Shown here: positions 10,212 through 62,083 of the stretch, one piece after another
Position numbering within the stretch: the stretch's first letter is position 1
Layout: every line of letters starts with the position of its first letter
Virus record (IMG/VR): IMGVR_UViG_3300029288_001872
Location: 125,633-189,632 of that record
Direction: 5' to 3' (one strand)
DNA length: 64,000 nt
Origin: a virus
Lineage: Duplodnaviria; Caudoviricetes
Notes under the pieces: model-generated
Told to the model about the DNA's origin: nothing
Database searches by the model: none
The model's input: the letters and a program-made list of their open reading frames with translations, nothing else
Translations under genes and position numbers: made by a program

Positions 10212-11192
10212 ATGAATAAAGTTAATGTTATCAAGGTATTAGACAGTATTTCGCCTATTTTATCTGAGGATTATGACATTATCCACTTCAATCAAGATTC
10301 CATTTATGCCGAAAGCAACATGATAGGAATTTCTTGCAATTTGGATTTTGGCTTCAAGGCTTCAATTAGAGGTATTGAATTAATAAAATTACTTAAAAAG
10401 ATGTCTGGCGATGAAGTAGAGTTTAAACTCACAGACAAAACTTTGTCAGTCAAAGGTGGCGGTTTATCAGCCAAGTTTAAGAAATATGATAAAGAAAAAA
10501 CACCACCAGATTTCACTGAATTAGAATTTAAAGAAGTACCAGACAATTTTATTGAAGCAATAACTGCTTGTTTACCTTCTGTATCAGATAAAGATATTCA
10601 AGGAATTTTAACTGGTTTGCATATTGACAATGCTTTAATGTATGGATGCAATAATGTTTCTGTGACTGAATATGAAATACCAGATATGGATGTAACATTT
10701 ACACTTCCGAAACAAACTGCTTCTTTGCTGACTAAATTTAATCCAAAATACTATTATATTACTGATAACAAGGCCATATTTGCCAATGAAGATAAAACTT
10801 CATATTTGTGGTCTGTGCTTATGGCTGGTGCTTATCCAGTTGAGAATATGGTTAAATTGTTGTCTAAAGAAGGTGATATTTTCTCTTTACCAGAAGAAAT
10901 AGGTAAAAGAGCAGATATTGTAAGTCTGTTTGCCTATGATGCTCAAGACGGCAGTTCTTTTATTGAAGTAGATATACAACCAGATAAGATTGTATTAGGC
11001 GGTAACAAGTCTTTTGGGAATTTGGAAGATGTGATGGAATATAAGTCGGAAGGAAGTGTGAAGTTTCATGTGAATAGTTTGTCTTTGAATCGAGCTTTGT
11101 TGATAGATAACAAATTTACATATTGTGGAAATTTCATTGTTTTTGAAAACAGCCAAGTCCGGCATCTGGTTTGTCTAGTTGACCACGCTTGA
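10212..11192 (+). CDS. dnaN: DNA polymerase III beta-like sliding clamp
   Basis: 326 aa; 'VSDKDIQGILTGLHI', 'LMAGAYP' match beta-clamp signatures; DnaE and DnaX nearby. Confidence 0.7.
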   Translation: MNKVNVIKVLDSISPILSEDYDIIHFNQDSIYAESNMIGISCNLDFGFKASIRGIELIKLLKKMSGDEVEFKLTDKTLSVKGGGLSAKFKKYDKEKTPPDFTELEFKEVPDNFIEAITACLPSVSDKDIQGILTGLHIDNALMYGCNNVSVTEYEIPDMDVTFTLPKQTASLLTKFNPKYYYITDNKAIFANEDKTSYLWSVLMAGAYPVENMVKLLSKEGDIFSLPEEIGKRADIVSLFAYDAQDGSSFIEVDIQPDKIVLGGNKSFGNLEDVMEYKSEGSVKFHVNSLSLNRALLIDNKFTYCGNFIVFENSQVRHLVCLVDHA

Positions 11193-11212: not shown

Positions 11213-11328
11213 GGTATGGTCGGGTCAGGTTTGGTATGGTTGGGTCTGGTGTGGTGAGGTCAGGTAGGGTTAGGTAAGGTGTGGTAAGGTGAGGGTGTAA
11301 GTCTAGAAAATTAGGCTTACACAGTTTT
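11213..11328 (+). ncRNA. guide array A: 16 x GGT-NN plus terminal hairpin
   Basis: Perfect 5-nt periodicity 11213-11292; stem 11295-11305/11312-11322 followed by AGTTTT. Confidence 0.8.
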
Positions 11329-11992: not shown

Positions 11993-12274
11993 ATGCCTAC
12001 AATTAAAATTCCAGCAGAATTGGCAAGAGCTATTGTTTATGATGATACAGATGAGGGTGAATTAATTGAAGAAGAGATTTTTGATAGTGGCAGATGGTCT
12101 ATCACCTATAAGGCTATAATTAAATATCAAGATAAATTTTACAAAACATTTTATAGAGTAGGTGCTACTGAAGCACAAGAAGAAAAGCCTTGGGAATATG
12201 ATGATGAAGCAGAATTAGTAGAAGTTAAGCAAGTAGAAAAAATGGTTAAAGTTTGGGAAAAAGTTGTTGATTAA
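11993..12274 (+). CDS. conserved hypothetical phage protein
   Basis: RBS; 'GRWS...GATEAQEEKPWEY'. Confidence 0.6.
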   Translation: MPTIKIPAELARAIVYDDTDEGELIEEEIFDSGRWSITYKAIIKYQDKFYKTFYRVGATEAQEEKPWEYDDEAELVEVKQVEKMVKVWEKVVD

Positions 12275-29176: not shown

Positions 29177-29205
29177 TTGACAAACATTGGGAAAAATTCT
29201 ACAAT
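29177..29205 (+). promoter_or_regulatory. promoter of the RAMP/guide-array locus
   Basis: TTGACA-17nt-TACAAT. Confidence 0.65.
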
Positions 29206-29359
29206 AAAGATAGTCAAAATTTTCATTTCCCATCCTCCTAAACCCCTAACCCTGTCCCATCTGAAAATGGTGGGGCAGGAACTTTTGCCAAAAATTAGGC
29301 GCTATGTCCCAGCGTTAAACCAAGGGACTTAAACCATAAAAGAGAGAGGTAAGCAAAAA

Positions 29360-30019
29360 ATGGCAGCAAAGAAAGACGTAACTGGAATTGTTCCAAGAAA
29401 AGATGTGGCAATCCCGCCTCCACAATTTCAAACTGTTGAGTTTACAATTGTTGGTGATGCTCCTTATGTCCAACAAAGATTTTCTCAGAAGGCAATTGAG
29501 CAAATCAAGGCGGTCCAACTGGCAGGTTCCAAGAGCAAGAAAGGAAAGGCTCGCGAACCAAAAGATTTTCAAGAATGTTATGAACAAGCTAAACACATTT
29601 CGACAGAAGGCTGGTGTGGTATTCCTGCATCTTCCTTTCGTGCTGCAATGATTTCTGCTTGTCGTTTGGTTGGGTTTAAGATGACTTTGGCTAAACTTTC
29701 AATTTTCATTCCTGCTGATGGTTTTGATGTGGTTGATGGAACACCATTGATTAAGTTTTCTAAAGGCGAACCGCGCTATGTTGAACACGCTATGAGAATT
29801 CCTGGTATTGGTGGCGGAGGTACAGATATTCGCCCTCGTCCGATGTGGGACCCAGGTTGGGAAGCAAAAGTGCGTGTCACTTTTGATGAGGCGCAATTTT
29901 CCGCGGAAGATGTAACCAATTTGATGATGAGGGTTGGTATGCAAGTTGGTTTGGGTGAAGGTCGCCCCGATTCCAGAAGTAGTGTTGGTATGGGATGGGG
30001 GACTTTCCAACTGAAATAA
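29360..30019 (+). CDS. stand-alone Cas7/RAMP-like protein (candidate guide-binding effector)
   Basis: N-terminal strand 'VEFTIVGDAPY', IPASSFRAAM (RAMP IPgSslKGa-like), C-terminal G-rich loop GLGEGRP..GMGWGTF; directly followed by the arrays. Confidence 0.75.
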   Translation: MAAKKDVTGIVPRKDVAIPPPQFQTVEFTIVGDAPYVQQRFSQKAIEQIKAVQLAGSKSKKGKAREPKDFQECYEQAKHISTEGWCGIPASSFRAAMISACRLVGFKMTLAKLSIFIPADGFDVVDGTPLIKFSKGEPRYVEHAMRIPGIGGGGTDIRPRPMWDPGWEAKVRVTFDEAQFSAEDVTNLMMRVGMQVGLGEGRPDSRSSVGMGWGTFQLK

Positions 30020-30027
30020 AATAAGTG

Positions 30028-30066
30028 TTCTTGAGGGGGTTCTTATAAAGAGAATCTTCTCAAGAA
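30028..30066 (+). other. stem-loop between RAMP gene and first array
   Basis: TTCTTGAGGGGGTTCT pairs with AGAATCTTCTCAAGAA (G-U allowed). Confidence 0.6.
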
Positions 30067-30071
30067 ATTAT

Positions 30072-30740
30072 GGCAGGCGTGACGACACAAGTTCAGATAG
30101 GGAGAGATGCGTTGGGGTGAGTCTTGGACTGTTAAGGCAGGTAAGACATGGCAAGTAAGACATGGCAAGTTGCAACCAGATATGTTATGGCGGTTTAAGT
30201 TATGGTTCGGCAGGCTATGCTAGTCGGGCTGAGGCTGGTTGAGACCCGTTAGGTTATGGCAGGTGTGACATGACAAGTGATATACGATTAGTTGAGTTAG
30301 GTTTTGGTTGATCGTGTTATGGTTTGGCAGGCCAAGAGTGATGAGATATGTCTTGGTAGGTTAAATTATGGCGGGGAGTATCATGACACGGCAGGTATGA
30401 CGAGACGCCACGAGAGAAGACAAGGAGTGTTGCTGTGCGACTTAACAAGGCAGGCAATTCCTCCTCTTGGCTAGTCGGGGCTTGGCAGGCGTGTTGAGAC
30501 TTTACAAGTTGAGTGTAATGAGTTAAGTTCTGTCACGATAGGGTTAGGCAAAGCAGGTACGACGACACAAGTTATGGTAAGTTCTGGGTGTTACAATGTG
30601 TTGGGTTCAGGCAAGGGTGGCAGGCTATGCTAGTCAGGTTGAGATTAGTTGAGATGATTTCTGGCGAGTTAAGACATAGCAGGTAGGATGAGTTACGTCC
30701 TGATAAGGTTTGTTCTGTCCTGATTTGTCAAGGCAGGCAA
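30072..30740 (+). repeat. guide array U: about 11 units delimited by GGCAGG/AGCAGG, each about 9-13 [triplet+NN] pentamers
   Basis: Delimiters at 30072, 30136, 30209, 30258, 30326, 30390, 30449, 30484, 30552, 30619, 30678, 30732; spacing often 4+5n. Confidence 0.8.
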
Positions 30741-30769
30741 GATAAATAATTAACCACAAGGAGAACTAA

Positions 30770-31258
30770 ATGATGGTAAAGAAACATTTGGATGAGTTGA
30801 ACCAAATTATGGAAGAAAATGGTGGATTACTTCGAGCGGAAGATGTTGTTGAATTCGCCAAAAATCCTAAGACAACTTTGCATAATGCGTTTGAGTGGGA
30901 TGATAAGAAGGCTTCTTATAAATGGAGGTTATTTCAAGCCAATCAACTCATCAGAGTTGCAGTTACTATTCTCCCAAGAGAAAACCAAGAACCCATTATG
31001 GTTCGGCCTTTCGTCAGTTTGAAAGAAGACAGATATAATGGTGGAGGTTATCGTTCCACACTGGAAGTAATGGAAAGTCCAATTCTCAGAAAAACGCTAT
31101 TGGATGAAGCTAAAGAGGATATGCAAACTTTCATGGATAAATACAAATCTTTGGAAGAACTTGCGGAAGTCTTTGTTGCAATGGAACCTTTAATTGTTCC
31201 ACCACCCACTAAAGGACAAAGAAAGTATAAAAGGGTTGAACAACAATTATCAGCTTGA
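30770..31258 (+). CDS. conserved phage protein embedded between the two arrays (candidate accessory subunit)
   Basis: RBS AGGAG; 'GGLLRAEDVVEFAKNPKTTLHNAFEWDDKKA..RL.QA.QLIR'. Confidence 0.7.
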   Translation: MMVKKHLDELNQIMEENGGLLRAEDVVEFAKNPKTTLHNAFEWDDKKASYKWRLFQANQLIRVAVTILPRENQEPIMVRPFVSLKEDRYNGGGYRSTLEVMESPILRKTLLDEAKEDMQTFMDKYKSLEELAEVFVAMEPLIVPPPTKGQRKYKRVEQQLSA

Positions 31259-31268
31259 TGTTTTATAT

Positions 31269-31632
31269 GGCAGGTATGGCACGTTTCGATTTGGTAGGAC
31301 ATGGTGTGTTTGGTCGCATTCTGGTACTTCAAGGCAGGTGTAACAAAGACGAGTCGAGATGAGTTCGGTTGTGGTGAGTTTTAATATGGAAAGATACGTT
31401 GAGGTTCGATACGGCAGGTAAGACAAGATAAGACAAGGAGTGGTGCTACTTGCCCCGATTTGTTAGGTTGAGGAGTTATACGGCAGGTCAGACGTGTCCG
31501 GTTGAGACAAGACATGGTGGGATATGACACGGTTTGTCGGGTTGAGATAAGCAAGGCATGGCAGGCGCGGCAGGTTGAGGCATGGCGCAATGTGACGTGG
31601 TGCGCTGGGGCAAGACAAGAAGAGACATAGCA
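31269..31632 (+). repeat. guide array V: 5 GGCAGG-delimited units; V2-V4 decode to recA
   Basis: Delimiters at 31269, 31333, 31413, 31482, 31560, end AGCA 31629. Confidence 0.85.
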
Positions 31633-31655
31633 ATTTTATTTTGAAGGAGAAATAA

Positions 31656-32756
31656 ATGGCAGGACCAAAGAAAAGAGAAATATCAGATACGGTAAGTCAA
31701 ATCAAAGAAGTTGCAAATTCTCCTATTGTTACTGATGATTCACGGGTGGATTTCCTTGATTCTGGAAGTACATTGTTGAATTTGGCGGCAAGTCAATTTG
31801 GTAAGAATGGAGGTTGGGCGCGAGGTCGAATTATCAATATTGTCGGTGATAAAAGTTCAGGTAAATCAATCACTTGCATTGAAGCCTGCGCTAATGCCTT
31901 CTACAATATTGGAAAGGTAAAATCAAAAATTTATCCAGATGTCCAACAAATTAATATAGTTTACAATAATTCAGAAGGGGTTCTTGACTTCCCAATCGAA
32001 ACCATGTACGGTAAAGCATTTAATGAGTCGGTCAATTGGATTCAAACGCCGATTGCAGAATCTTTCGGACGTGACTTTCAACAACGCCTTGCTGCTTTGA
32101 AGAAAGGTGAATTTATGTTATATGTTGTTGATTCAATTGATTCTTTGGTGTCTGAGGCTGCCGCAAAAAGAATGAGTCAAGTGTTGTCAGATAAAAAAGT
32201 AGATGGTAGTTATGGTGTTGAAAAAGCAAAATTTTTTAGTTCTGAATTCTTTAATCATCTTTGTGGAGCAATGAAGGGGAAAGATGCGACATTGATTTGT
32301 GTGTCTCAAGTTAGAGAAAATATCTCCACAATCAGTTTTGGAGAACGATATTATCGCACTGGTGGAAAGGCATTTGATTTTTATAGTCATCAAGTTTGTT
32401 GGCTTGCAGTTGTTGAAAAATTAAAAAAGACATTTCGTGGTCAAGAAAGAGTATACGGTGTAAAAACACGAGCAAGATTTAAGAAATCTAAAGTATCAAA
32501 ACCTTTCAGAGAAGCAGATTTTACAATTTTATTTGACTATGGTTTAGACAATGTTTCATCATTGGTTGATTATTATTTCGGTCCAAAAGCGAAAGAAATT
32601 GAATGGAAAAACGAAAAGTTAAAAACACAAGATTTTCTCCAGCGGCTTGATAATTCACCAGAAGATTTGGAACTTTTGAAAGACTTGGTTGAAAAAGATT
32701 GGCTTGAAATTGAAGAACATGTCAAACCGGAACGCAAACCGAGGTGGACAGATTAA
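31656..32756 (+). CDS. recA: RecA/UvsX recombinase
   Basis: SGSTLLN, GRIINIVGDKSSGKS, VVDSI, SQVRE, KSKVSKPFRE. Confidence 0.9.
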   Translation: MAGPKKREISDTVSQIKEVANSPIVTDDSRVDFLDSGSTLLNLAASQFGKNGGWARGRIINIVGDKSSGKSITCIEACANAFYNIGKVKSKIYPDVQQINIVYNNSEGVLDFPIETMYGKAFNESVNWIQTPIAESFGRDFQQRLAALKKGEFMLYVVDSIDSLVSEAAAKRMSQVLSDKKVDGSYGVEKAKFFSSEFFNHLCGAMKGKDATLICVSQVRENISTISFGERYYRTGGKAFDFYSHQVCWLAVVEKLKKTFRGQERVYGVKTRARFKKSKVSKPFREADFTILFDYGLDNVSSLVDYYFGPKAKEIEWKNEKLKTQDFLQRLDNSPEDLELLKDLVEKDWLEIEEHVKPERKPRWTD

Positions 32757-34175: not shown

Positions 34176-34418
34176 GTCAACCACCCTATAACTATTAAAA
34201 TGTTATGAACTTTAAGTTCGAGGTTGACCAGACTCAGCTAGAGTCACAAGACTATCGGGCTACGTTAATTGAATCATGACACCTTGGGATGCGCGCCAGT
34301 CCCATGCTCTGTCAACTAACATTAAACAGACATACGGGGTTGAAGTCAGTGTGTTGGTTGTAAAAAGTTTAATTAACCTTGTCGAGGCAAACATTACCCT
34401 AGAAATAGGAGGCTCATT
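34176..34418 (+). ncRNA. omegaRNA (HEARO-like) scaffold of IscB
   Basis: GTCAACC...GGTTGACCAGACTCAG, CTACGTT, GACACCTTGGGATGC..CCAGTCCCATGCTCTGTC, TTGTCGAGG; directly 5' of iscB. Confidence 0.8.
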
Positions 34419-35666
34419 TTGAGTAAGGTTTTTGTTTTAGATACTAATAAAAGACCGTTAAATATGGTTCATCCAGGAAGAGCAAGAAAATTGCTTTCTT
34501 CTGGTCAAGCAGCAGTATTCAAAAGATATCCTTTTACAATTATTCTGAAGAAGGAAGTTAATTCGCTTATTAAACCATTGAGAATCAAAATTGATCCGGG
34601 AAGTAGATTTACAGGGTTGGCTTTGGTTGAAGAGAAAGAAGTGGTTTTTGCTGCTGAGATTGAACACAGAGGACATAGGATTAAGAAATTATTGGATTCA
34701 AGAAGAATGATTCGTCAGCATCGTAGAAGTAGAAAAACTAGATATCGTCAAGCAAGATTTTTAAATAGAAAGAAACCAAAAGGTTGGATTCCACCATCTT
34801 TGGAAAGCAGGGTACAAAATATCAAAACATGGGTAAGTCGTTTAAGCAAATTGGCACCAATAAATTCAATTTCTTTAGAATTGGTTAAGTTTGATTTACA
34901 GAAACTTCAAAATCCAGAAATTTCTGGAATAGAATATCAACAAGGAGAATTATTTGGCTATGAAGTTAGAGAATATTTGTTAGAGAAATGGAAAAGAAAA
35001 TGTGCTTATTGTGAATGTGTAGATAAACCATTACAAGTTGAACATATCGTTCCAAAATCTCGTAGTGGTTCAAATAGGGTATCAAATTTGACTTTGGCTT
35101 GTGAAAAGTGTAATCAAAAGAAGGGAAATCTTACCGCTGAAGAATTTGGTTTTCCTGATATTCAAAAACAAGCTAAGAAACCACTTAAAGATGCGACAAT
35201 AGTCAATGCAACAAGATGGAGATTATTCAATTTGTTAAAAGAATTTAACTTTCCATTAGAAATAGGAAGCGGAGGAAGAACCAAATTTAATAGAACAAAC
35301 CAAAATTATCCTAAAACCCATTGGATTGATGCGGCTTGTGTTGGCAAATCTGGAAAGGAAATTGAAATACCTTATTGGATAAAACCTTTATATATTAAAG
35401 CATTTGGTCATGGTTCTCGCCAGAAATGTAGGACAGATAAATATGGTTTTCCTAAATCTTATGTTCCTAAAGAGAAGTCTTTTATGGGATATAAGACTGG
35501 AGATATTGTAAAAGCAAATGTTTTAAAAGGAAAGTATAGAGGACATTATATTGGAAGAATAGCTATTAGACATAGACCAAATTTTATATTAAATAACTTT
35601 GATGTCAATCCGAAGTATTTAAAGATTGTGCAAAAAATGGATGGGTATGGATATTTGTTAAATTAA
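34419..35666 (+). mobile_element. iscB: IscB RNA-guided endonuclease (IS200/IS605 family, no tnpA seen)
   Basis: PLMP-like N-terminus, IDPGS (RuvC-I), RRSRKTRYRQARFLNR, CAYC..VEHIVPKSRSGSNRVSNL (HNH), HWIDA. Confidence 0.95.
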
Positions 35667-58452: not shown

Positions 58453-59391
58453 ATGAACATACTGGTGACTGGCGGGGCCGGCTTTCTCGGAAGTGTTCTT
58501 ATTGGAAAATTATTACAAGAAGGGCATGTAATTACAGTAATAGATAATCTGATGTATAGCCAATCGTCATTGTTACAATATTGTAACAATCTGAATTTCA
58601 AATTTGTGTGGGGAGATGTAAATGAAAATGAATTTGTTGATGATTACATAACTGATTGTGATATTTTTATTCCGTTGGCCAGTATTGTTGGCGCTCCAGC
58701 TTGTTCAAGATTTCCTCAATCTGGATTAGTTGATAAATCAATAACAAGATATAAATTACGAAACAAAATGGTAATTTTTCCCATGAGCAATTCTGGCTAT
58801 GGAACACAAAGCGGCGAATTATATTGTACAGAAGAAACGCCATTAACTCCAGTTTCTAGATATGGTTTGCAAAAAGTTGAAGTAGAAAATTATTTATTTA
58901 AACACCATCCCAATACTATTAGTTTACGTCTTGCCACTGTATTTGGTGTCAGTCCTCGTATGAGAACAGACTTGCTGGTGAATTTTACTGTCAACGAATG
59001 CGTCACTAAAAAAGTAATTTTATTGCCAGAAGATGTTATGAACAACAGTCGCAATTTTGTTCATGTTCTGGATGTGGTAAATTGTTTTGTTCATTGCATA
59101 AATAATTTTGACAATATGAAAGGACAATCATACAACTTAGGGAATGATAATTTAAATATGACACTAGGAGAAATGACATATCAAATTGCTGAAAATTTAG
59201 GAAGTGAAGTAGTTCTTTCTCATCATTATAAAGACCCAGATAAAAGAAATTATATTGTTTCAAATGAGAAATTAAGAAAGGCAGGATTTGAAGCAAAGAG
59301 GACAATTTTAGAAGAATTGCCAAACTTAATTGAAGTGTGTCGTATGATCCAAATGATGAATTATGGGAGAAATCAATTTAAAAATGCTTAA
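58453..59391 (+). CDS. NAD-dependent epimerase/dehydratase
   Basis: TGGAGFLG, YGLQK, RLATVFG. Confidence 0.9.
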   Translation: MNILVTGGAGFLGSVLIGKLLQEGHVITVIDNLMYSQSSLLQYCNNLNFKFVWGDVNENEFVDDYITDCDIFIPLASIVGAPACSRFPQSGLVDKSITRYKLRNKMVIFPMSNSGYGTQSGELYCTEETPLTPVSRYGLQKVEVENYLFKHHPNTISLRLATVFGVSPRMRTDLLVNFTVNECVTKKVILLPEDVMNNSRNFVHVLDVVNCFVHCINNFDNMKGQSYNLGNDNLNMTLGEMTYQIAENLGSEVVLSHHYKDPDKRNYIVSNEKLRKAGFEAKRTILEELPNLIEVCRMIQMMNYGRNQFKNA

Positions 59392-59394
59392 TGT

Positions 59395-59542
59395 GGTAAG
59401 GTGCGGTTGGGTGAGGTATGGTATGGTCAGGTATGGTCTGGTAAGGTTAGGTGGGGTCGTGTAGGGTGAGGTTTGGTAAGGTATGGTAAGGGTTTGGTTG
59501 TCATTTTCCAATTAAATCTTATTGGAAAATGACAACAATTTT
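59395..59542 (+). ncRNA. guide array B: 19 x GGT-NN plus 16-bp hairpin
   Basis: Pentamers 59395-59489; stem 59497-59512/59521-59536 then AATTTT. Confidence 0.8.
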
Positions 59543-59573
59543 GAATATAAAAACTGAATTTAGGAATGCTTAA

Positions 59574-60260
59574 ATGCAAATACCAGATACATTAATTCTT
59601 TGTGGCGGTCTTGGTGAAAGACTAAGACCTCTTACCGACAATCATCAAAAATGTATGTTGCCAGTACAAGGAAGGCCATTTCTTGAATACACAGTGGATA
59701 AAATTAAACAATTGGAATTAAAACCACCTATTTTCTGTTGTGGTCATAAATCAGATGAAATAATCAATCATTTTGGAAACGGATATAAATTTTCATATCG
59801 CGACAATATAAATACTGGAGCAAGGATTAAAGAAGCATTATCTTTAATTCACTCAGAACATTCTATCGTCTTTAATGGAGATTCATATTGCAACATAGAC
59901 TATAATTATTTTTGGTACACATATAAGGAATTTATCAATTTAGGAAAAGATGTTTGCAAAATATTGGTTCACAAAAAGAACTCTTTATTAGCTTCATATA
60001 TTTCCAGTTCTGTATATGATTATTATGGTGCTGGAATTTATTTCTTCAAAAAGAATTATATAGAAAGTTTAGAGAAGAATGACAACCTTTCTATAGAAGA
60101 TGATATTTTACCAAATTGTAAAAAGATTTATAATTGTGCCATTCCAGAAGAATTTTTTGTAATTGATATTGGTACTAAAGAAAATTATGAGATGGTAAAT
60201 AGCAAGGAGAATAAATATGGACAATTTTTTACCGACGCAAATAAATGGGTTGTTGAGTAA
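59574..60260 (+). CDS. sugar-phosphate nucleotidyltransferase (HddC-like)
   Basis: LCGGLGERLRPLT..K, NGDS, DIGT. Confidence 0.85.
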   Translation: MQIPDTLILCGGLGERLRPLTDNHQKCMLPVQGRPFLEYTVDKIKQLELKPPIFCCGHKSDEIINHFGNGYKFSYRDNINTGARIKEALSLIHSEHSIVFNGDSYCNIDYNYFWYTYKEFINLGKDVCKILVHKKNSLLASYISSSVYDYYGAGIYFFKKNYIESLEKNDNLSIEDDILPNCKKIYNCAIPEEFFVIDIGTKENYEMVNSKENKYGQFFTDANKWVVE

Positions 60261-60720
60261 ACCATTAAAAGTAATTCCAGACTTTAGGGGAGAATTTCAA
60301 AAAATTAGTTTAAATAGCCCTTTTGTAGAACAAGACATGGCTGTCTCGTATAATAATGTTCTTCGCGGGTTTCATTATGTAACTGAAGGACGACGAATAT
60401 TCTCTCTTGTTCATGGTAGATTATATTGTGTATTTTTGGATATTCAAGAGGAGTCTGATACTAAAAATGACTGGTTTGGTATAACTCTTGATAGTAGTAA
60501 TAGACAAAGATTTTTGATTCCATCATATGTGGCTTGTTCTTATCTTGTTCTTTCTCCTGTTGCTATAGTCCATTATGAATTAGAATTTGAGTATGATGAA
60601 TCCAAGCAGAAGACAATAAGATTTGATGATGAAAGATTCAATGTATATTTCCCAGGCGATCATAAAGGCTATATACTTAGCGAAAGAGATTATTTTATAG
60701 ACGAATCATTAATTAGATAA
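60217..60720 (+). CDS. rmlC: dTDP-4-dehydrorhamnose 3,5-epimerase family
   Basis: DFRGEF, VLRGFH, ILSERD. Confidence 0.8.
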   Translation: MDNFLPTQINGLLSKPLKVIPDFRGEFQKISLNSPFVEQDMAVSYNNVLRGFHYVTEGRRIFSLVHGRLYCVFLDIQEESDTKNDWFGITLDSSNRQRFLIPSYVACSYLVLSPVAIVHYELEFEYDESKQKTIRFDDERFNVYFPGDHKGYILSERDYFIDESLIR

Positions 60721-60737
60721 ATTTTAAACATGTTTGT

Positions 60738-60881
60738 GGTACGGTGAGGTGGGGTAAGGTAGGGTATGGTTTGGTACTGTCCAGTATGGTTTGGTGGGGT
60801 AAGGTTTGGTAAGGTTGGGTGTGGTAAGGTGAGGGTTGCTTCTTTTGTTTTAACAATTTGATAGAAAGAAGCAACAGTTTT
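60738..60881 (+). ncRNA. guide array C: 19 x (G)GT-NN plus hairpin
   Basis: Pentamers 60738-60832; stem GTTGCTTCTTT/AAAGAAGCAAC then AGTTTT. Confidence 0.8.
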
Positions 60882-60915
60882 AACAAATAAAGTTCACAAT
60901 AAGGTAAAAAATCAA

Positions 60916-61896
60916 GTGATTATCGCAAGGTCGCCCTATCGAATTTCATTCCTAGGTGGAAATTCAGATCAAGCTGATTGGTTTAATCTGCATGGCGGTT
61001 GTGTTCTATCTACTACGATAGATAAATATTGCTATATAATGGTTAAGCCAATTACAAACTTTTTTGGGTATAATTATAAAATTGTTTATCGAAAAATAGA
61101 AAATGTTAATACTTTGGATGAAATAGAACATTATACAGCAAGAGAATGTATAAGATATTCTGGAATTAAGACGGGACTAGAAGTGCATCACTCTGGAGAC
61201 CTACCTGCCCGGAGCGGGATGGCTTCTTCAAGTGCTTATGCCACTGCGTTATTATTGGCTCTTTATACTTTAGATGGCAAATATGTAGATAAAGGCCAAT
61301 TAGCAAAAGATGCTATCTATATAGAAAGAAATGTATTGCAAGAAGTAGGCGGAGTGCAAGACCAACTGGCATGTTCTTTCGGGGGATTTAATAAAATAGA
61401 ATTTCTTGATAATAATTTATATCATACTTTTCCAATTCCTATAAGTAGAGAACGATCAGAATTATTTCAAAATCACCTATTGCTATTTTATTTAGGCACG
61501 ACTAGAGCCGCATCAGAAATTTCCAAAACTTTTGTTCCAAACATAGATAGTAAGAGAAGACAACTTAGAGTTTCAAAAGAATTGGTTGAAGAAGGAATTA
61601 ACATACTGTGTTCAAATTCTGATATCAGATTATTTGGCGATTTGTTGCATGAATACTGGATGTTGAAACGTTCATTAAGTGATAAAGTTAGTGATGAAAA
61701 TATAGATAATTATTATGAATTGGCAATGAAAAACGAAGCCATAGGCGGGAAGGTCTTGGGAGCAGGGGGCGGAGGTTTTCTATTATTATTTGCAGAACCA
61801 GATAAACACAATAAAATTATAGAAGGATTTAATGATTTACTTCATGTTCCATTTAAGTTTGAAAAAACAGGTTCAACAATTATCTTTAAAGGTTGA
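60916..61896 (+). CDS. GHMP sugar kinase (HddA heptose-7-phosphate kinase-like)
   Basis: PYRISFLGG, PARSGMASSS, GGVQDQ, GGKVLGAGGGG. Confidence 0.9.
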   Translation: MIIARSPYRISFLGGNSDQADWFNLHGGCVLSTTIDKYCYIMVKPITNFFGYNYKIVYRKIENVNTLDEIEHYTARECIRYSGIKTGLEVHHSGDLPARSGMASSSAYATALLLALYTLDGKYVDKGQLAKDAIYIERNVLQEVGGVQDQLACSFGGFNKIEFLDNNLYHTFPIPISRERSELFQNHLLLFYLGTTRAASEISKTFVPNIDSKRRQLRVSKELVEEGINILCSNSDIRLFGDLLHEYWMLKRSLSDKVSDENIDNYYELAMKNEAIGGKVLGAGGGGFLLLFAEPDKHNKIIEGFNDLLHVPFKFEKTGSTIIFKG

Positions 61897-61951
61897 TAAA
61901 TGCTTAGAGAATTTGAAATTCAAAACCTTTTGCACCAAAAGGATTAAATGA

Positions 61952-62068
61952 GGTCCGGTTCGGTACGGTATGGTTAGGTATGGTCAGGTCCGGTTTGGTA
62001 AGGTTTGGTCGGGTAGGGTAAGGTGAGGGTACTAATCCTACTACACTCGGTAGGATTAGTACAATTTT
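61952..62068 (+). ncRNA. guide array D: 15 x GGT-NN plus hairpin
   Basis: Pentamers 61952-62026; stem 62029-62042/62049-62062 then AATTTT. Confidence 0.8.
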
Positions 62069-62083
62069 TAAGGATTTAAAAAT

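What the first reader, a model, noticed from the sequence alone, without database searches (positions are those of the whole stretch)
31333..31559. Three guides in array V decode (NN, skip one base) to a diverged allele of the adjacent recA gene
V3 NN = aa aa aa aa gt gc tt cc tt ag ga gt ac reads as codon positions 1+2 of K-K-N-K-V-A-L-P-F-R-E-V-T, the RecA KNKVAxPFR motif. The own gene has KKSKVSKPFREAD at 32481-32519 (8/13 dinucleotides identical). V4 NN = ca gt cg ga aa at gg at ac tt gg ga aa reads QVRENIGITFGEK vs own QVRENISTISFGER at 32307-32348, which has one extra codon. V2 NN = gt aa ga ga ga cg gt ga tt at aa ac ga tc ac reads V-K/N-D-D-D/E-R-V-D-F-I-N-T-D/E-S-T vs own VTDDSRVDFLDSGST at 31728-31772 (8/15). 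Amino acids were chosen where NN is ambiguous. Several mismatches are synonymous (CG/AG Arg, TC/AG Ser) or conservative, so the guides look copied from another recA allele and not from self. Inference: the targets are related, competing phages, and self escapes by mismatch.
Basis: partly seen in the sequence, partly recalled or inferred. Interest (0 to 1): 0.95.

Follow-up and report, generated by a model that had tools for sequence, protein, structure and literature searches.

The report
Phage VIPR guide RNAs targeting recA

Summary
Units V2, V3 and V4 of the array at 31333-31559 are tracts of 13-15 pentamers, each a variable dinucleotide NN followed by G-N-Y. Read as "NN, skip one base", they align in frame with three conserved motifs of RecA-like genes.

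- **Specificity:** only period 3, only the NN phase and only the coding-sense strand give a signal. Shuffled guides do not.
- **Non-self targets:** V4 matches 13/13 NN in five IMG/VR contigs. V2 reaches 0.83 and V3 0.81 nucleotide identity in relatives.
- **Self:** no site in the phage's own genome exceeds 0.69.

This is a VIPR system (Vipr RAMP protein, accessory gene, GGY/NN vrRNAs, 1-nt skip rule), described in bioRxiv 10.64898/2026.04.26.720920, .720927 and 2026.10.15.759431. The 219-aa gene at 29360-30019 folds as a Cas7-like RAMP. The 2.36-kb cassette is missing from two close relatives. This scan has met VIPR before on other DNA.

Extras at this locus:
- a G-D-Y scaffold instead of GGY;
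- a RecA-like target;
- nine solo GGTNN guides, each placed just after a gene.

Three of the solo guides match a sister phage's allele of that gene at 0.88-1.00, against at most 0.75 for the phage's own allele. One sister-phage guide reciprocally best-matches this phage's clamp gene, but at 0.77, below the published 0.8 threshold.

Verdict: a new member of a known kind.

The parts
29286..31648 (+). VIPR cassette as an indel: vipr, array 1, accessory gene and array V
   Evidence: blastn: L001 3986->3994 and L002 3676->3713 bridge window 29285->31649/31686, so the relatives lack this stretch. The junction is shown.
29177..29205 (+). Promoter-like site (TTGACA-17-TACAAT, 11/12) in the segment shared with L001. 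It probably drives vipr, the arrays and recA.
   Evidence: conserved in L001. This is a consensus match only.
29360..30019 (+). vipr: a 219-aa Cas7-like RAMP protein
   Evidence: AF2 pLDDT 85.8. The top 50 Foldseek PDB hits are all CRISPR RAMPs (Cmr4, Csm3, Cas7-11, type VII Cas7), prob 1.0, TM about 0.45. About 6,950 homologues, none with a Pfam family. hhalign to SUSP1 Vipr gives E 9.4e-5 over the G-loop region.
30072..30760 (+). Array 1: about 11 degenerate, phase-shifting pentamer units delimited by GGCAGG. Targets not found.
30770..31258 (+). Accessory (vap-like) gene, 162 aa
   Evidence: Conserved partner directly downstream of vipr homologues. 8,799 relatives. Model pLDDT 89.9. N-terminal 100 aa weakly winged-helix-like, Z 5.3-6.8. 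No similarity to SUSP1 vap1.
31269..31332 (+). Unit V1 (12 pentamers). No target found.
   Evidence: best identity 0.71, which is background.
31333..31412 (+). Unit V2 (NN tract 31341-31415). Guide to the RecA N-terminal motif (K)DDERVEF(I/L)N(T/S)GST.
   Evidence: 11/15 NN and 25/30 nt on L021/L022. It is the only 11-NN window of the whole locus that reaches 20/22 on the sister phage G001.
31413..31481 (+). Unit V3 (NN tract 31420-31484). Guide to the RecA motif KKNK(V/T)ALPFRE.
   Evidence: 10/13 NN and 21/26 nt on L002/L023. The top hit in every RecA locus is at the homologous site.
31482..31559 (+). Unit V4 (NN tract 31489-31553). Guide to the RecA motif QVRE(K/N)IGITFG(D/E)K.
   Evidence: 13/13 NN in L012, L013, L015, L016 and L017. 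Identity of 0.80 or more in 50 of 94 loci.
31560..31640 (+). Degenerate terminal segment of array V (two GGCAGG, irregular pentamers, then a T-rich stretch before the recA ribosome-binding site)
   Evidence: No target found.
31656..32756 (+). Own RecA-like gene (366 aa). Sub-threshold self sites at 31728-31772 (V2, 0.63), 32307-32348 (V4, 0.57 ungapped; one extra codon) and 32481-32519 (V3, 0.69).
   Evidence: Pfam RecA 4.8e-20.
11213..11297 (+). Solo GGTNN vrRNA 20 nt after the sliding-clamp gene (10212-11192). Its 12-NN guide spells IRHLICLVDHS-stop.
   Evidence: 21/24 = 0.88 on the sister phage's clamp C-terminus versus 0.75 on self.
11106..11144 (+). Site in the own clamp gene that best matches the sister phage's clamp-adjacent guide (9 consecutive NN, 20/26 = 0.77, below the published 0.8 threshold)
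   Evidence: unique best site on the + strand of this genome.
59395..59494 (+). Solo GGTNN vrRNA 3 nt after the epimerase gene. It mirrors that gene's last 16-20 codons at 0.70-0.75.
   Evidence: The same array is conserved in G001.
60738..60837 (+). Solo GGTNN vrRNA 17 nt after the dTDP-sugar epimerase gene
   Evidence: 28/32 = 0.88 on the G001 homologue; own allele 9/16 NN.
61952..62031 (+). Solo GGTNN vrRNA after the GHMP-kinase gene. No target found.
63104..63311 (+). Two solo GGTNN vrRNAs (63104-63178 and 63207-63311) after the glycosyltransferase gene. No targets found.

Best explanation
Array V is a staggered array of VIPR guide RNAs (vrRNAs). It belongs to a phage-borne VIPR cassette: the vipr RAMP gene at 29360-30019, array 1, a 162-aa accessory gene, then array V. 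The cassette sits in the leader of the phage's own recA-like gene.

From the published mechanism, one Vipr protomer binds each pentamer. It sequesters the G-N-Y triplet and presents the NN dinucleotide. The NN pair with double-stranded DNA while every third target base is skipped (5 RNA nt to 3 DNA nt, an R-loop triplex). Binding represses transcription.

V2, V3 and V4 are aimed at three conserved coding motifs of RecA-like recombinase genes of other phages. The skipped base falls on the wobble position, so synonymous changes do not give escape. The phage's own recA scores 0.57-0.69 at these sites, below the 0.8 identity used for natural targets, and is presumably spared.

Shown here:
- the repeat anatomy and the RAMP fold;
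- that the cassette is an indel relative to close relatives;
- that the signal is specific to period 3, one phase and one strand;
- that non-self matches exceed self matches.

Inferred from the literature, not tested here: expression and processing of the RNAs, loading on Vipr, DNA binding, silencing, and any benefit in co-infection.
For: - **Anatomy:** tracts of 12-15 pentamers NN+G-N-Y between GGCAGG delimiters.
- **Vipr:** AF2 model pLDDT 85.8, and every one of the top 50 PDB matches is a Cas7-family RAMP. hhalign to the experimentally studied SUSP1 Vipr gives E 9.4e-5 across the G-loop.
- **Conserved gene-array association:** homologues in L008, L009 and L011 are followed by a roughly 150-aa partner and by (NN GGC)n arrays with ACGGCAGGC delimiters.
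- **Skip rule:** only period 3 stands out. The other phases, the other strand and shuffled guides do not.
- **Targets:** V4 13/13 NN in five contigs, in frame in a RecA-like gene. V2 0.83, V3 0.81, and V4 at 0.8 or more in 50 of 94 RecA loci. Own-genome maximum 0.67-0.69.
- **Accessory status:** the cassette is absent from relatives L001 and L002 at exactly this site.
- **Published mechanism:** bioRxiv 10.64898/2026.04.26.720920, 10.64898/2026.04.26.720927 and 10.64898/2026.10.15.759431.
- **Independent support in the same genome:** solo GGTNN guides match the sister phage G001 at 1.00, 0.88 and 0.88 in the homologue of the gene next to each guide.
Against: - The scaffold is G-D-Y, not GGY. 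The second G, which SUSP1 Vipr holds between R138 and W178, is variable here, and the Trp position aligns to Gly. Binding by this Vipr is therefore assumed.
- Sequence similarity to the characterised Vipr is weak (hhalign probability 59%), and there is none to vap1.
- V2 and V3 have no perfect target. Exact 10-11-NN scans of viral contigs, metagenomes (V3 only) and prokaryote genomes (V2 only) found none, and their best identities only just pass 0.8.
- V1, the terminal segment and all of array 1 have no identified target.
- The 0.8 threshold comes from other VIPR clades. The mismatch tolerance of this one is unknown.
Confidence: 0.9

Rival explanations
1. Self-regulation. The guides act mainly on the phage's own recA, immediately downstream, through their partial matches, and tune its expression rather than attacking rivals.
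For: The array lies in the recA leader, downstream of the one strong promoter-like site. V3's best site in the whole own genome is in recA.
Against: Self identity of 0.57-0.69 is no higher than the best unrelated sites elsewhere in the own genome. V4 is out of register with self by one codon. Foreign alleles match better, up to 13/13. The published systems found no self hits at or above 0.8.
Confidence: 0.04
2. Decoy or anti-VIPR role. The tracts are RNAs that soak up or redirect a competitor's Vipr, as satellite solo vrRNAs do, and are not used by the phage's own effector.
For: Solo vrRNAs that redirect foreign Vipr are documented. The sister phage G001 carries GGTNN solos but no Vipr of this clade.
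Against: Array V sits inside a cassette with its own vipr and accessory gene. Homologous cassettes elsewhere carry the same kind of array. The targets are conserved coding motifs of a phage gene, not repetitive decoy sites.
Confidence: 0.04
3. Chance, or a different repeat function. The period-5 G tracts would be protein-binding sites of the TRAP (G/U)AG type or G-quadruplex repeats, and the resemblance to recA would be accidental.
For: My first impression was of GAG/GGT triplets spaced by 2 nt. Individual self scores of 7-8 are near the genome-wide background for other phases.
Against: The phase, period, strand and shuffle controls all single out the NNx reading. Seven exact 22-base gapped matches were found in IMG/VR against an expectation of roughly 0.01, my own estimate. 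All best hits fall at homologous, in-frame RecA motifs.
Confidence: 0.01

Closest known systems
VIPR systems: type II exemplars of Escherichia phage SUSP1 and the Pseudomonas fulva prophage (bioRxiv 10.64898/2026.04.26.720920; structures in 10.64898/2026.04.26.720927)
   Same: A small RAMP protein, an adjacent accessory gene and flanking arrays of tandem pentamers with variable NN. NNx (1-nt skip) matches, aligned on the wobble position, to coding genes of other mobile elements. No self hit at or above 0.8. The solo GGTNN arrays here end in GGGT + hairpin + T-run, like SUSP1 vrRNAs.
   Different: The Vipr is from another clade: tblastn to SUSP1 gives only E 0.012, and hhalign probability is 59%. 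The accessory protein is unrelated to vap1. The cassette arrays use G-D-Y instead of GGY and have only a GGCAGG junction, with no hairpin or pseudoknot tail. The target is a RecA-like recombinase of other phages, which the preprints do not mention.
Staggered vrRNA arrays and 'related consensus' repeats (NNNGG, YNNNG, NNNNG) of other VIPR types (same preprint, fig. S17-S18)
   Same: Units abut one another, so the end of one marks the start of the next. The scaffold is degenerate and there are internal phase slips.
   Different: I could not assign a type because the supplementary tables are not held. The consensus here, YNNGN, is not one of the three listed.
Solo (orphan) vrRNAs of satellites and VIPR-null phages (bioRxiv 10.64898/2026.10.15.759431)
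   Same: Stand-alone GGYNN guides outside a vipr locus, with self-match lower than non-self match. G001 is a VIPR-null phage, at least for this clade, that carries solos.
   Different: The published solos sit where vipr-vap1 was deleted, or in satellites, and they target vipr, vrRNAs, satellites or host REP decoys. Here each solo sits 0-136 nt after an ordinary gene. Where a target was found (3 of 9), it is the sister phage's allele of that same gene.
Class 1 CRISPR Cas7 backbone (Csm3/Cmr4)
   Same: RAMP fold, one subunit per guide segment, periodic base flipping (for Vipr).
   Different: The periodicity is 5 nt guide to 3 nt target instead of 6:6. There are no repeat-spacer array, cas1/cas2 or nuclease genes in the cassette, and the system is carried by a virus.

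Membership tests
VIPR system | Vipr protein: a small (~20 kDa) single-RRM RAMP with G-loop and thumb | tested here: met
   The 219-aa model has pLDDT 85.8. All top 50 PDB matches are Cas7-type RAMPs, prob 1.0. It has a C-terminal Gly-rich loop GLGEGRPDS..GMGWG.
VIPR system | Sequence homology to an experimentally characterised Vipr (SUSP1) | tested here: inconclusive
   hhalign probability 58.8%, E 9.4e-5 over 64 C-terminal columns including the G-loop. tblastn E 0.012.
VIPR system | vrRNAs made of 9-16 tandem pentamers with an invariant GGY (or related) scaffold and hypervariable NN | tested here: met
   V1-V4 have 12-15 pentamers with G 89% / N / Y 89% and variable NN, a variant scaffold. 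The solo arrays have GG 97-99% and T 93%.
VIPR system | 1-nt skip rule: NNx matches, not NN, NNxx or NNxxx | tested here: met
   Period 3 gives 11/15, 10/13 and 11-13/14. Periods 2, 4 and 5 give 7-8.
VIPR system | Skipped base aligned with the codon wobble position in coding targets | tested here: met
   All best hits of V2-V4 are in frame in RecA-like ORFs.
VIPR system | Natural targets at 80% identity or more in other mobile elements, and none in the source genome | tested here: met
   V4 1.00, V2 0.83, V3 0.81; own-genome maxima 0.67-0.69.
VIPR system | Adjacent accessory (vap) gene with a DNA-interaction domain | tested here: inconclusive
   A conserved 147-162-aa partner gene is present. 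Winged-helix-like matches reach only Z 5.3-6.8. No similarity to SUSP1 vap1.
VIPR system | Structured invariant 3' tail on each vrRNA | tested here: not met
   Units of array V are separated only by (AC)GGCAGG(T). This fits the published 'staggered' architecture rather than type II. The solo arrays do carry GGGT + hairpin + T-run.
VIPR system | vrRNA expression, Vipr-vrRNA complex formation, dsDNA binding and silencing | not testable with these tools
No wet-lab data exist for this phage.
CRISPR-Cas (class 1) | Repeat-spacer array with contiguous spacers, plus cas1/cas2 or other cas genes | tested here: not met
   No CRISPR repeat family in Rfam. Tandem and period analysis shows only pentamer tracts. 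The cassette holds two genes only, and neither matches PADLOC.

The most novel reading that the evidence does not exclude
In this phage lineage vrRNA genes are physically linked to the resistant self allele of the gene whose foreign alleles they silence.

- Array V sits in the leader of the phage's own recA.
- Each solo GGTNN guide sits 0-136 nt after a gene. Three of the nine match the complete sister phage G001 at 1.00, 0.88 and 0.88, exactly in the homologue of that neighbouring gene, while the own allele scores 0.75 or less.
- G001 carries, at the same place after its clamp gene, a different guide whose best site in this genome is this phage's clamp allele (9 consecutive NN, 0.77).
- G001's recA-adjacent guide matches a third phage's recA at 0.81.

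Guide and immune allele would then travel together through recombination as a killer-plus-antidote module, a gapped-code analogue of homing-endonuclease marker exclusion. That would drive allele replacement among co-infecting sibling phages. The three preprints do not mention allele linkage. This scan noted the same pattern once before on another genome (e1-5700458).
Probability: 0.45. Interest if true: 0.6.

Novelty: new member of a known kind. Interest (0 to 1): 0.35.

Why it matters
The gapped 'NN, skip the wobble base' guide code is real, and a tool-less reader recovered it from raw sequence. It was, however, published in 2026 as VIPR, so the mechanism is not new.

What this locus adds:
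- **A Vipr clade with about 7,000 relatives.** It has no Pfam family. I could not check whether the published survey of 664-667 loci includes it.
- **A relaxed G-D-Y scaffold.** This bears on how Vipr recognises its repeats.
- **A core recombination gene as a natural target.** Three guides cover three conserved RecA motifs. That suggests phages use VIPR against the replication and recombination machinery of related phages, not only against satellites and prophage switches.
- **A testable population-genetic idea.** Guides sit beside the resistant self allele, and two complete sister phages carry guides whose best matches lie in each other's clamp gene (0.88 and 0.77).

Tried and rejected
- **First idea:** a TRAP-like (G/U)AG protein-binding site, or G-quadruplex repeats. 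Dropped once the NNx signal proved specific to one phase and one period.
- **Rfam:** no family covers the arrays. The only hits are HEARO and tRNAs.
- **Pfam and PADLOC:** nothing for either cassette protein. PHROGs gives families of unknown function only.
- **Exact gapped-pattern scans that found nothing:** V3 in viral contigs and twice in metagenomes. V2 in viral contigs and in prokaryote genomes. Solo guides A115703 and A136845 in viral contigs. One array-1 unit in viral contigs.
- **V4 pattern in prokaryote genomes:** one hit, in Polaribacter marinus. It is out of frame inside a 418-aa ORF and only 11/13, so it is probably chance. No bacterial recA is hit.
- **Guides of homologous cassettes (L008, L009, L011):** no matches within their own +/-5 kb.
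- **Array 1 and V1:** no target in the own genome, in G001 or in 94 RecA loci.
- **Escape test:** I asked whether the own RecA differs from the family consensus mainly inside the guide windows. It does not (p = 0.43).
- **Second Vipr gene for the GGTNN solos:** none found by tblastn with either Vipr or by a G-loop motif scan. G001 has no match to the Vipr profile.
- **Accessory protein fold:** no Foldseek match, and only middling winged-helix rows with VIA-align.
- **VIPR type:** could not be assigned because the supplementary tables are not held.

Full report
**What is there.**

The window is the last 64 kb of a 189,632-bp, 34% G+C virus record. Between a gp32-like gene and a RecA-like gene (31656-32756; Pfam RecA 4.8e-20) lies a run of sequence with a strong 5-nt G periodicity, all on the + strand. 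It holds, in order:
- a 219-aa ORF (29360-30019);
- about 11 irregular repeat units (array 1, 30072-30760);
- a 162-aa ORF (30770-31258);
- array V (31269-31640).

Units are delimited by GGCAGG. Within V1-V4 the pentamers are NN + G(89%) - N - Y(89%).

The genome also holds nine very clean (GGTNN)13-21 arrays. Each lies 0-136 nt after the stop codon of a + strand gene. Each ends in a shared block, (GGTAA) GGTGT GGTAA GGTGA GGGT, followed by a hairpin and a T-run.

**Checking the observation.**

Against the phage's own recA:
- V3 gives 8/13 at 32481. This is the only position of 379,264 in the own genome that reaches 8.
- V2 gives 7/15 at 31728, one of 18 such positions.
- V4 gives 5 of its first 6 NN at 32307, then resumes after one extra own codon.

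On their own these scores are modest, because other phases reach 7-8 elsewhere.

The decisive test was against RecA-like genes fetched by protein homology: 7 loci and then 80 more.
- In the NN phase, at period 3 and on the coding-sense strand, V2 reaches 11/15, V3 10/13 and V4 11/14.
- Periods 2, 4 and 5, the four other phases, the minus strand and unit V1 stay at background.
- In 200 order-shuffles per guide the mean maximum is 7.4-8.0. The observed value is reached 1, 1 and 0 times.
- All top hits sit in frame at three homologous motifs: (K)DDERVEFI.TGST, QVREKIG..FGEK and K.NKVA.PFRE.

An exact gapped-pattern scan of IMG/VR with the first 11 NN of V4 (22 specified bases) found seven contigs. 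By my own estimate from base count the expectation is roughly 0.01.

By the nucleotide-identity score used in the literature:

| Guide | Best non-self | Best anywhere in own genome |
|---|---|---|
| V4 | 1.00 (0.80 or more in 50 of 94 loci) | 0.69 |
| V2 | 0.83 | 0.67 |
| V3 | 0.81 | 0.69 |

Shuffles do not score as well, and non-self homologues match better than self.

**What it is.**

[quoted passage not shown] It describes VIPR systems as follows:
- a roughly 20-kDa ancestral RAMP protein (Vipr);
- an accessory gene (vap);
- vrRNAs of 9-16 GGY/NN pentamers;
- NN that pair with dsDNA by a '1-nt skip rule', with the skipped base on the codon wobble position;
- natural targets in competing phages and satellites, and no self hits at or above 80%.

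A companion preprint gives the structures: one protomer per repeat, GGY sequestered, 5 RNA nt per 3 DNA nt, an R-loop triplex. A third describes solo vrRNAs and reports self-match lower than non-self match.

I tested the defining features here.
- **Fold.** The 219-aa protein folds with pLDDT 85.8. Its 50 best PDB matches are all Cas7-type RAMPs.
- **Homology.** A profile of its family aligns to the SUSP1 Vipr over the G-loop region with E 9.4e-5, but probability is only 59%.
- **Family size and context.** The family is large (about 6,950 hits, no Pfam family). In three unrelated contigs the gene is followed by a roughly 150-aa partner and by (NN GGC)n arrays with the same ACGGCAGGC junction.
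- **Partner protein.** The 162-aa partner is only weakly winged-helix-like (Z 5.3-6.8) and is unrelated to SUSP1 vap1.
- **Array architecture.** Array V has no hairpin tails and resembles the 'staggered' arrays mentioned in the preprint.

The whole 2,363-bp cassette (29286-31648) is missing from two close relatives. Their gp32-like and recA genes flank the same junction at about 80-90% nucleotide identity. The promoter-like site at 29177-29205 lies in the shared leader. The cassette is therefore accessory and sits between the recA promoter and recA.

**How it most likely works.**

Shown: the anatomy, the fold, the code and the self/non-self asymmetry.

Inferred from the preprints:
- The array is transcribed and cut at or near the GGCAGG junctions.
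- Vipr polymerises on each tract.
- The filaments bind the RecA-like genes of co-infecting or resident phages and block their transcription.
- The own allele escapes through 4-6 mismatched dinucleotides per guide, plus a one-codon register shift at the V4 site.

I looked for a signature of selection for escape and did not find one. The own RecA differs from the family consensus no more inside the guide windows than outside (p = 0.43).

Open points:
- The variable second scaffold base. The residue aligned with SUSP1 W178, which stacks on G2, is Gly here.
- V2 and V3 have no perfect target.
- Array 1 and V1 have no identified target.
- Bacterial recA is not a target. Neither exact scan of one genome per prokaryote species (V2, V4) hit a recA gene; the V4 scan gave one out-of-frame hit that looks like chance.

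**Beyond the finding: the solo arrays.**

After trimming their shared 3' block, the nine GGTNN arrays give guides of 10-17 NN. A complete sister phage was fetched whole for comparison: G001, 187,988 bp with terminal repeats, clamp 93%, epimerase 82% and RecA 62% identical to this phage.

Three of this phage's solo guides match G001 far above shuffled guides. In each case the match lies in the homologue of the gene directly upstream of the guide:

| Guide | Match in G001 | G001 peptide | Own allele |
|---|---|---|---|
| A1116 | 24/24 | LCIHDCRLPKRP | VCIHDCKISGRN |
| A136845 (clamp) | 21/24 | IRHLICLVDHS-stop | 18/24 |
| A186370 | 28/32 | dTDP-sugar epimerase homologue | 9/16 NN |

For the clamp guide, all three mismatches are synonymous: Leu CTN/TTR twice, and the stop codon.

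In the other direction:
- G001 carries a different guide at the same spot after its clamp gene. That guide's unique best site on the + strand of this genome is the clamp gene here: 9 consecutive NN, 0.77. This is below the 0.8 threshold, so the reciprocity is suggestive rather than established.
- G001's array directly after its recA matches a third phage's recA with 15 consecutive NN, 0.81 overall.

G001 has no Vipr of this clade, so its arrays are solo vrRNAs in the sense of the third preprint. The three preprints do not mention linkage of a guide to the self allele of its target. I rate the killer-guide-plus-immune-allele reading as plausible but unproven. Five of the nine solos have no good match in G001 or self. 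One (A115703) has a borderline self hit of 18/20, shared with G001.

**Verdict.**

The system is a VIPR locus, known since April 2026, so this is a new member of a known kind. It has three variant features: the G-D-Y scaffold, RecA-like targets, and guides linked to the self allele. Interest is moderate to low for the finding itself and higher for the linkage idea.

Noticed in passing
window 34176-35666: HEARO (IscB omega-RNA) at 34176-34397 (135 bits, full length), followed by a 415-aa IscB-like ORF (RRXRR + HNH) at 34419-35666. This is a second RNA-guided system, about 2.5 kb downstream of the VIPR cassette.
   Followed up: no
window 11213-11297, 59395-59494, 60738-60837, 61952-62031, 63104-63178, 63207-63311; also G000:C1:1116-1200, 12072-12151, 115703-115767: Nine solo (GGTNN)13-21 arrays, each 0-136 nt after a gene. 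They share a 3' block (GGTGT GGTAA GGTGA GGGT), a hairpin and a T-run, and look like SUSP1-type vrRNAs. Three have targets of 0.88-1.00 in the sister phage's allele of the neighbouring gene.
   Followed up: partly
L103:2508-2572 (G001) versus window 11106-11144: The sister phage's clamp-adjacent guide has its unique best match in this genome's clamp gene (DNKFTYCGN, 9 consecutive NN, 0.77). Its own allele (NNKFVCCGN) scores below 0.65. Together with this phage's own clamp-adjacent guide, which matches G001's clamp at 0.88, the pair suggests reciprocal, allele-specific targeting.
   Followed up: partly
G000:C1:116999-117028 (about 8.6 kb before the window): The trimmed guide of solo array A115703 (10 NN) hits a self site at 18/20 = 0.90 (IDVDRRNLNG). 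The site is identical in G001. Shuffles reach 0.85, so this is borderline. The same guide also has 7 consecutive NN of its trimmed 10 (9 of the untrimmed 13) on the adjacent upstream gene (EIINLNGVK).
   Followed up: partly
window 29270-29290 and L001:3975-3994: The cassette junction lies just after a GCAGGAAC motif that is conserved in the cassette-free relative and resembles the GGCAGG unit delimiter. The recA start (ATGGCAGGA) also contains GGCAGG. This could be a deletion or insertion hot spot. No target-site duplication was seen.
   Followed up: no
window 30136-30170: A 14-nt tandem repeat, GGCAAGTAAGACAT x 2.5, inside array 1. These are three miniature 'units' of two pentamers each.
   Followed up: no
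window 63355-63999 and G000:C1:50-1105: An ORF runs off the end of the record and continues at its start. The G001 homologue is one 536-aa ORF. The record is therefore circularly permuted or terminally redundant, and the cluster of solo arrays spans the record ends.
   Followed up: partly
window 58453-63103: A block of nucleotide-sugar genes: NAD-dependent epimerase, nucleotidyl transferase, dTDP-sugar 3,5-epimerase, GHMP kinase and family-2 glycosyltransferase. A solo vrRNA follows the epimerase, dTDP-sugar epimerase, GHMP-kinase and glycosyltransferase genes; none was found after the nucleotidyl transferase.
   Followed up: no
L106:5122-5153 (Polaribacter marinus MSW13): The only prokaryote-genome match to the first 11 NN of V4. 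It is out of frame inside a 418-aa ORF and is probably chance. Low-G+C marine Flavobacteriia would be a conceivable host group.
   Followed up: partly
window 32325-32333: At the V4 site the own RecA carries one more codon (ISTISFG) than about 70% of homologues (IG..FG). This shifts the guide register.
   Followed up: partly
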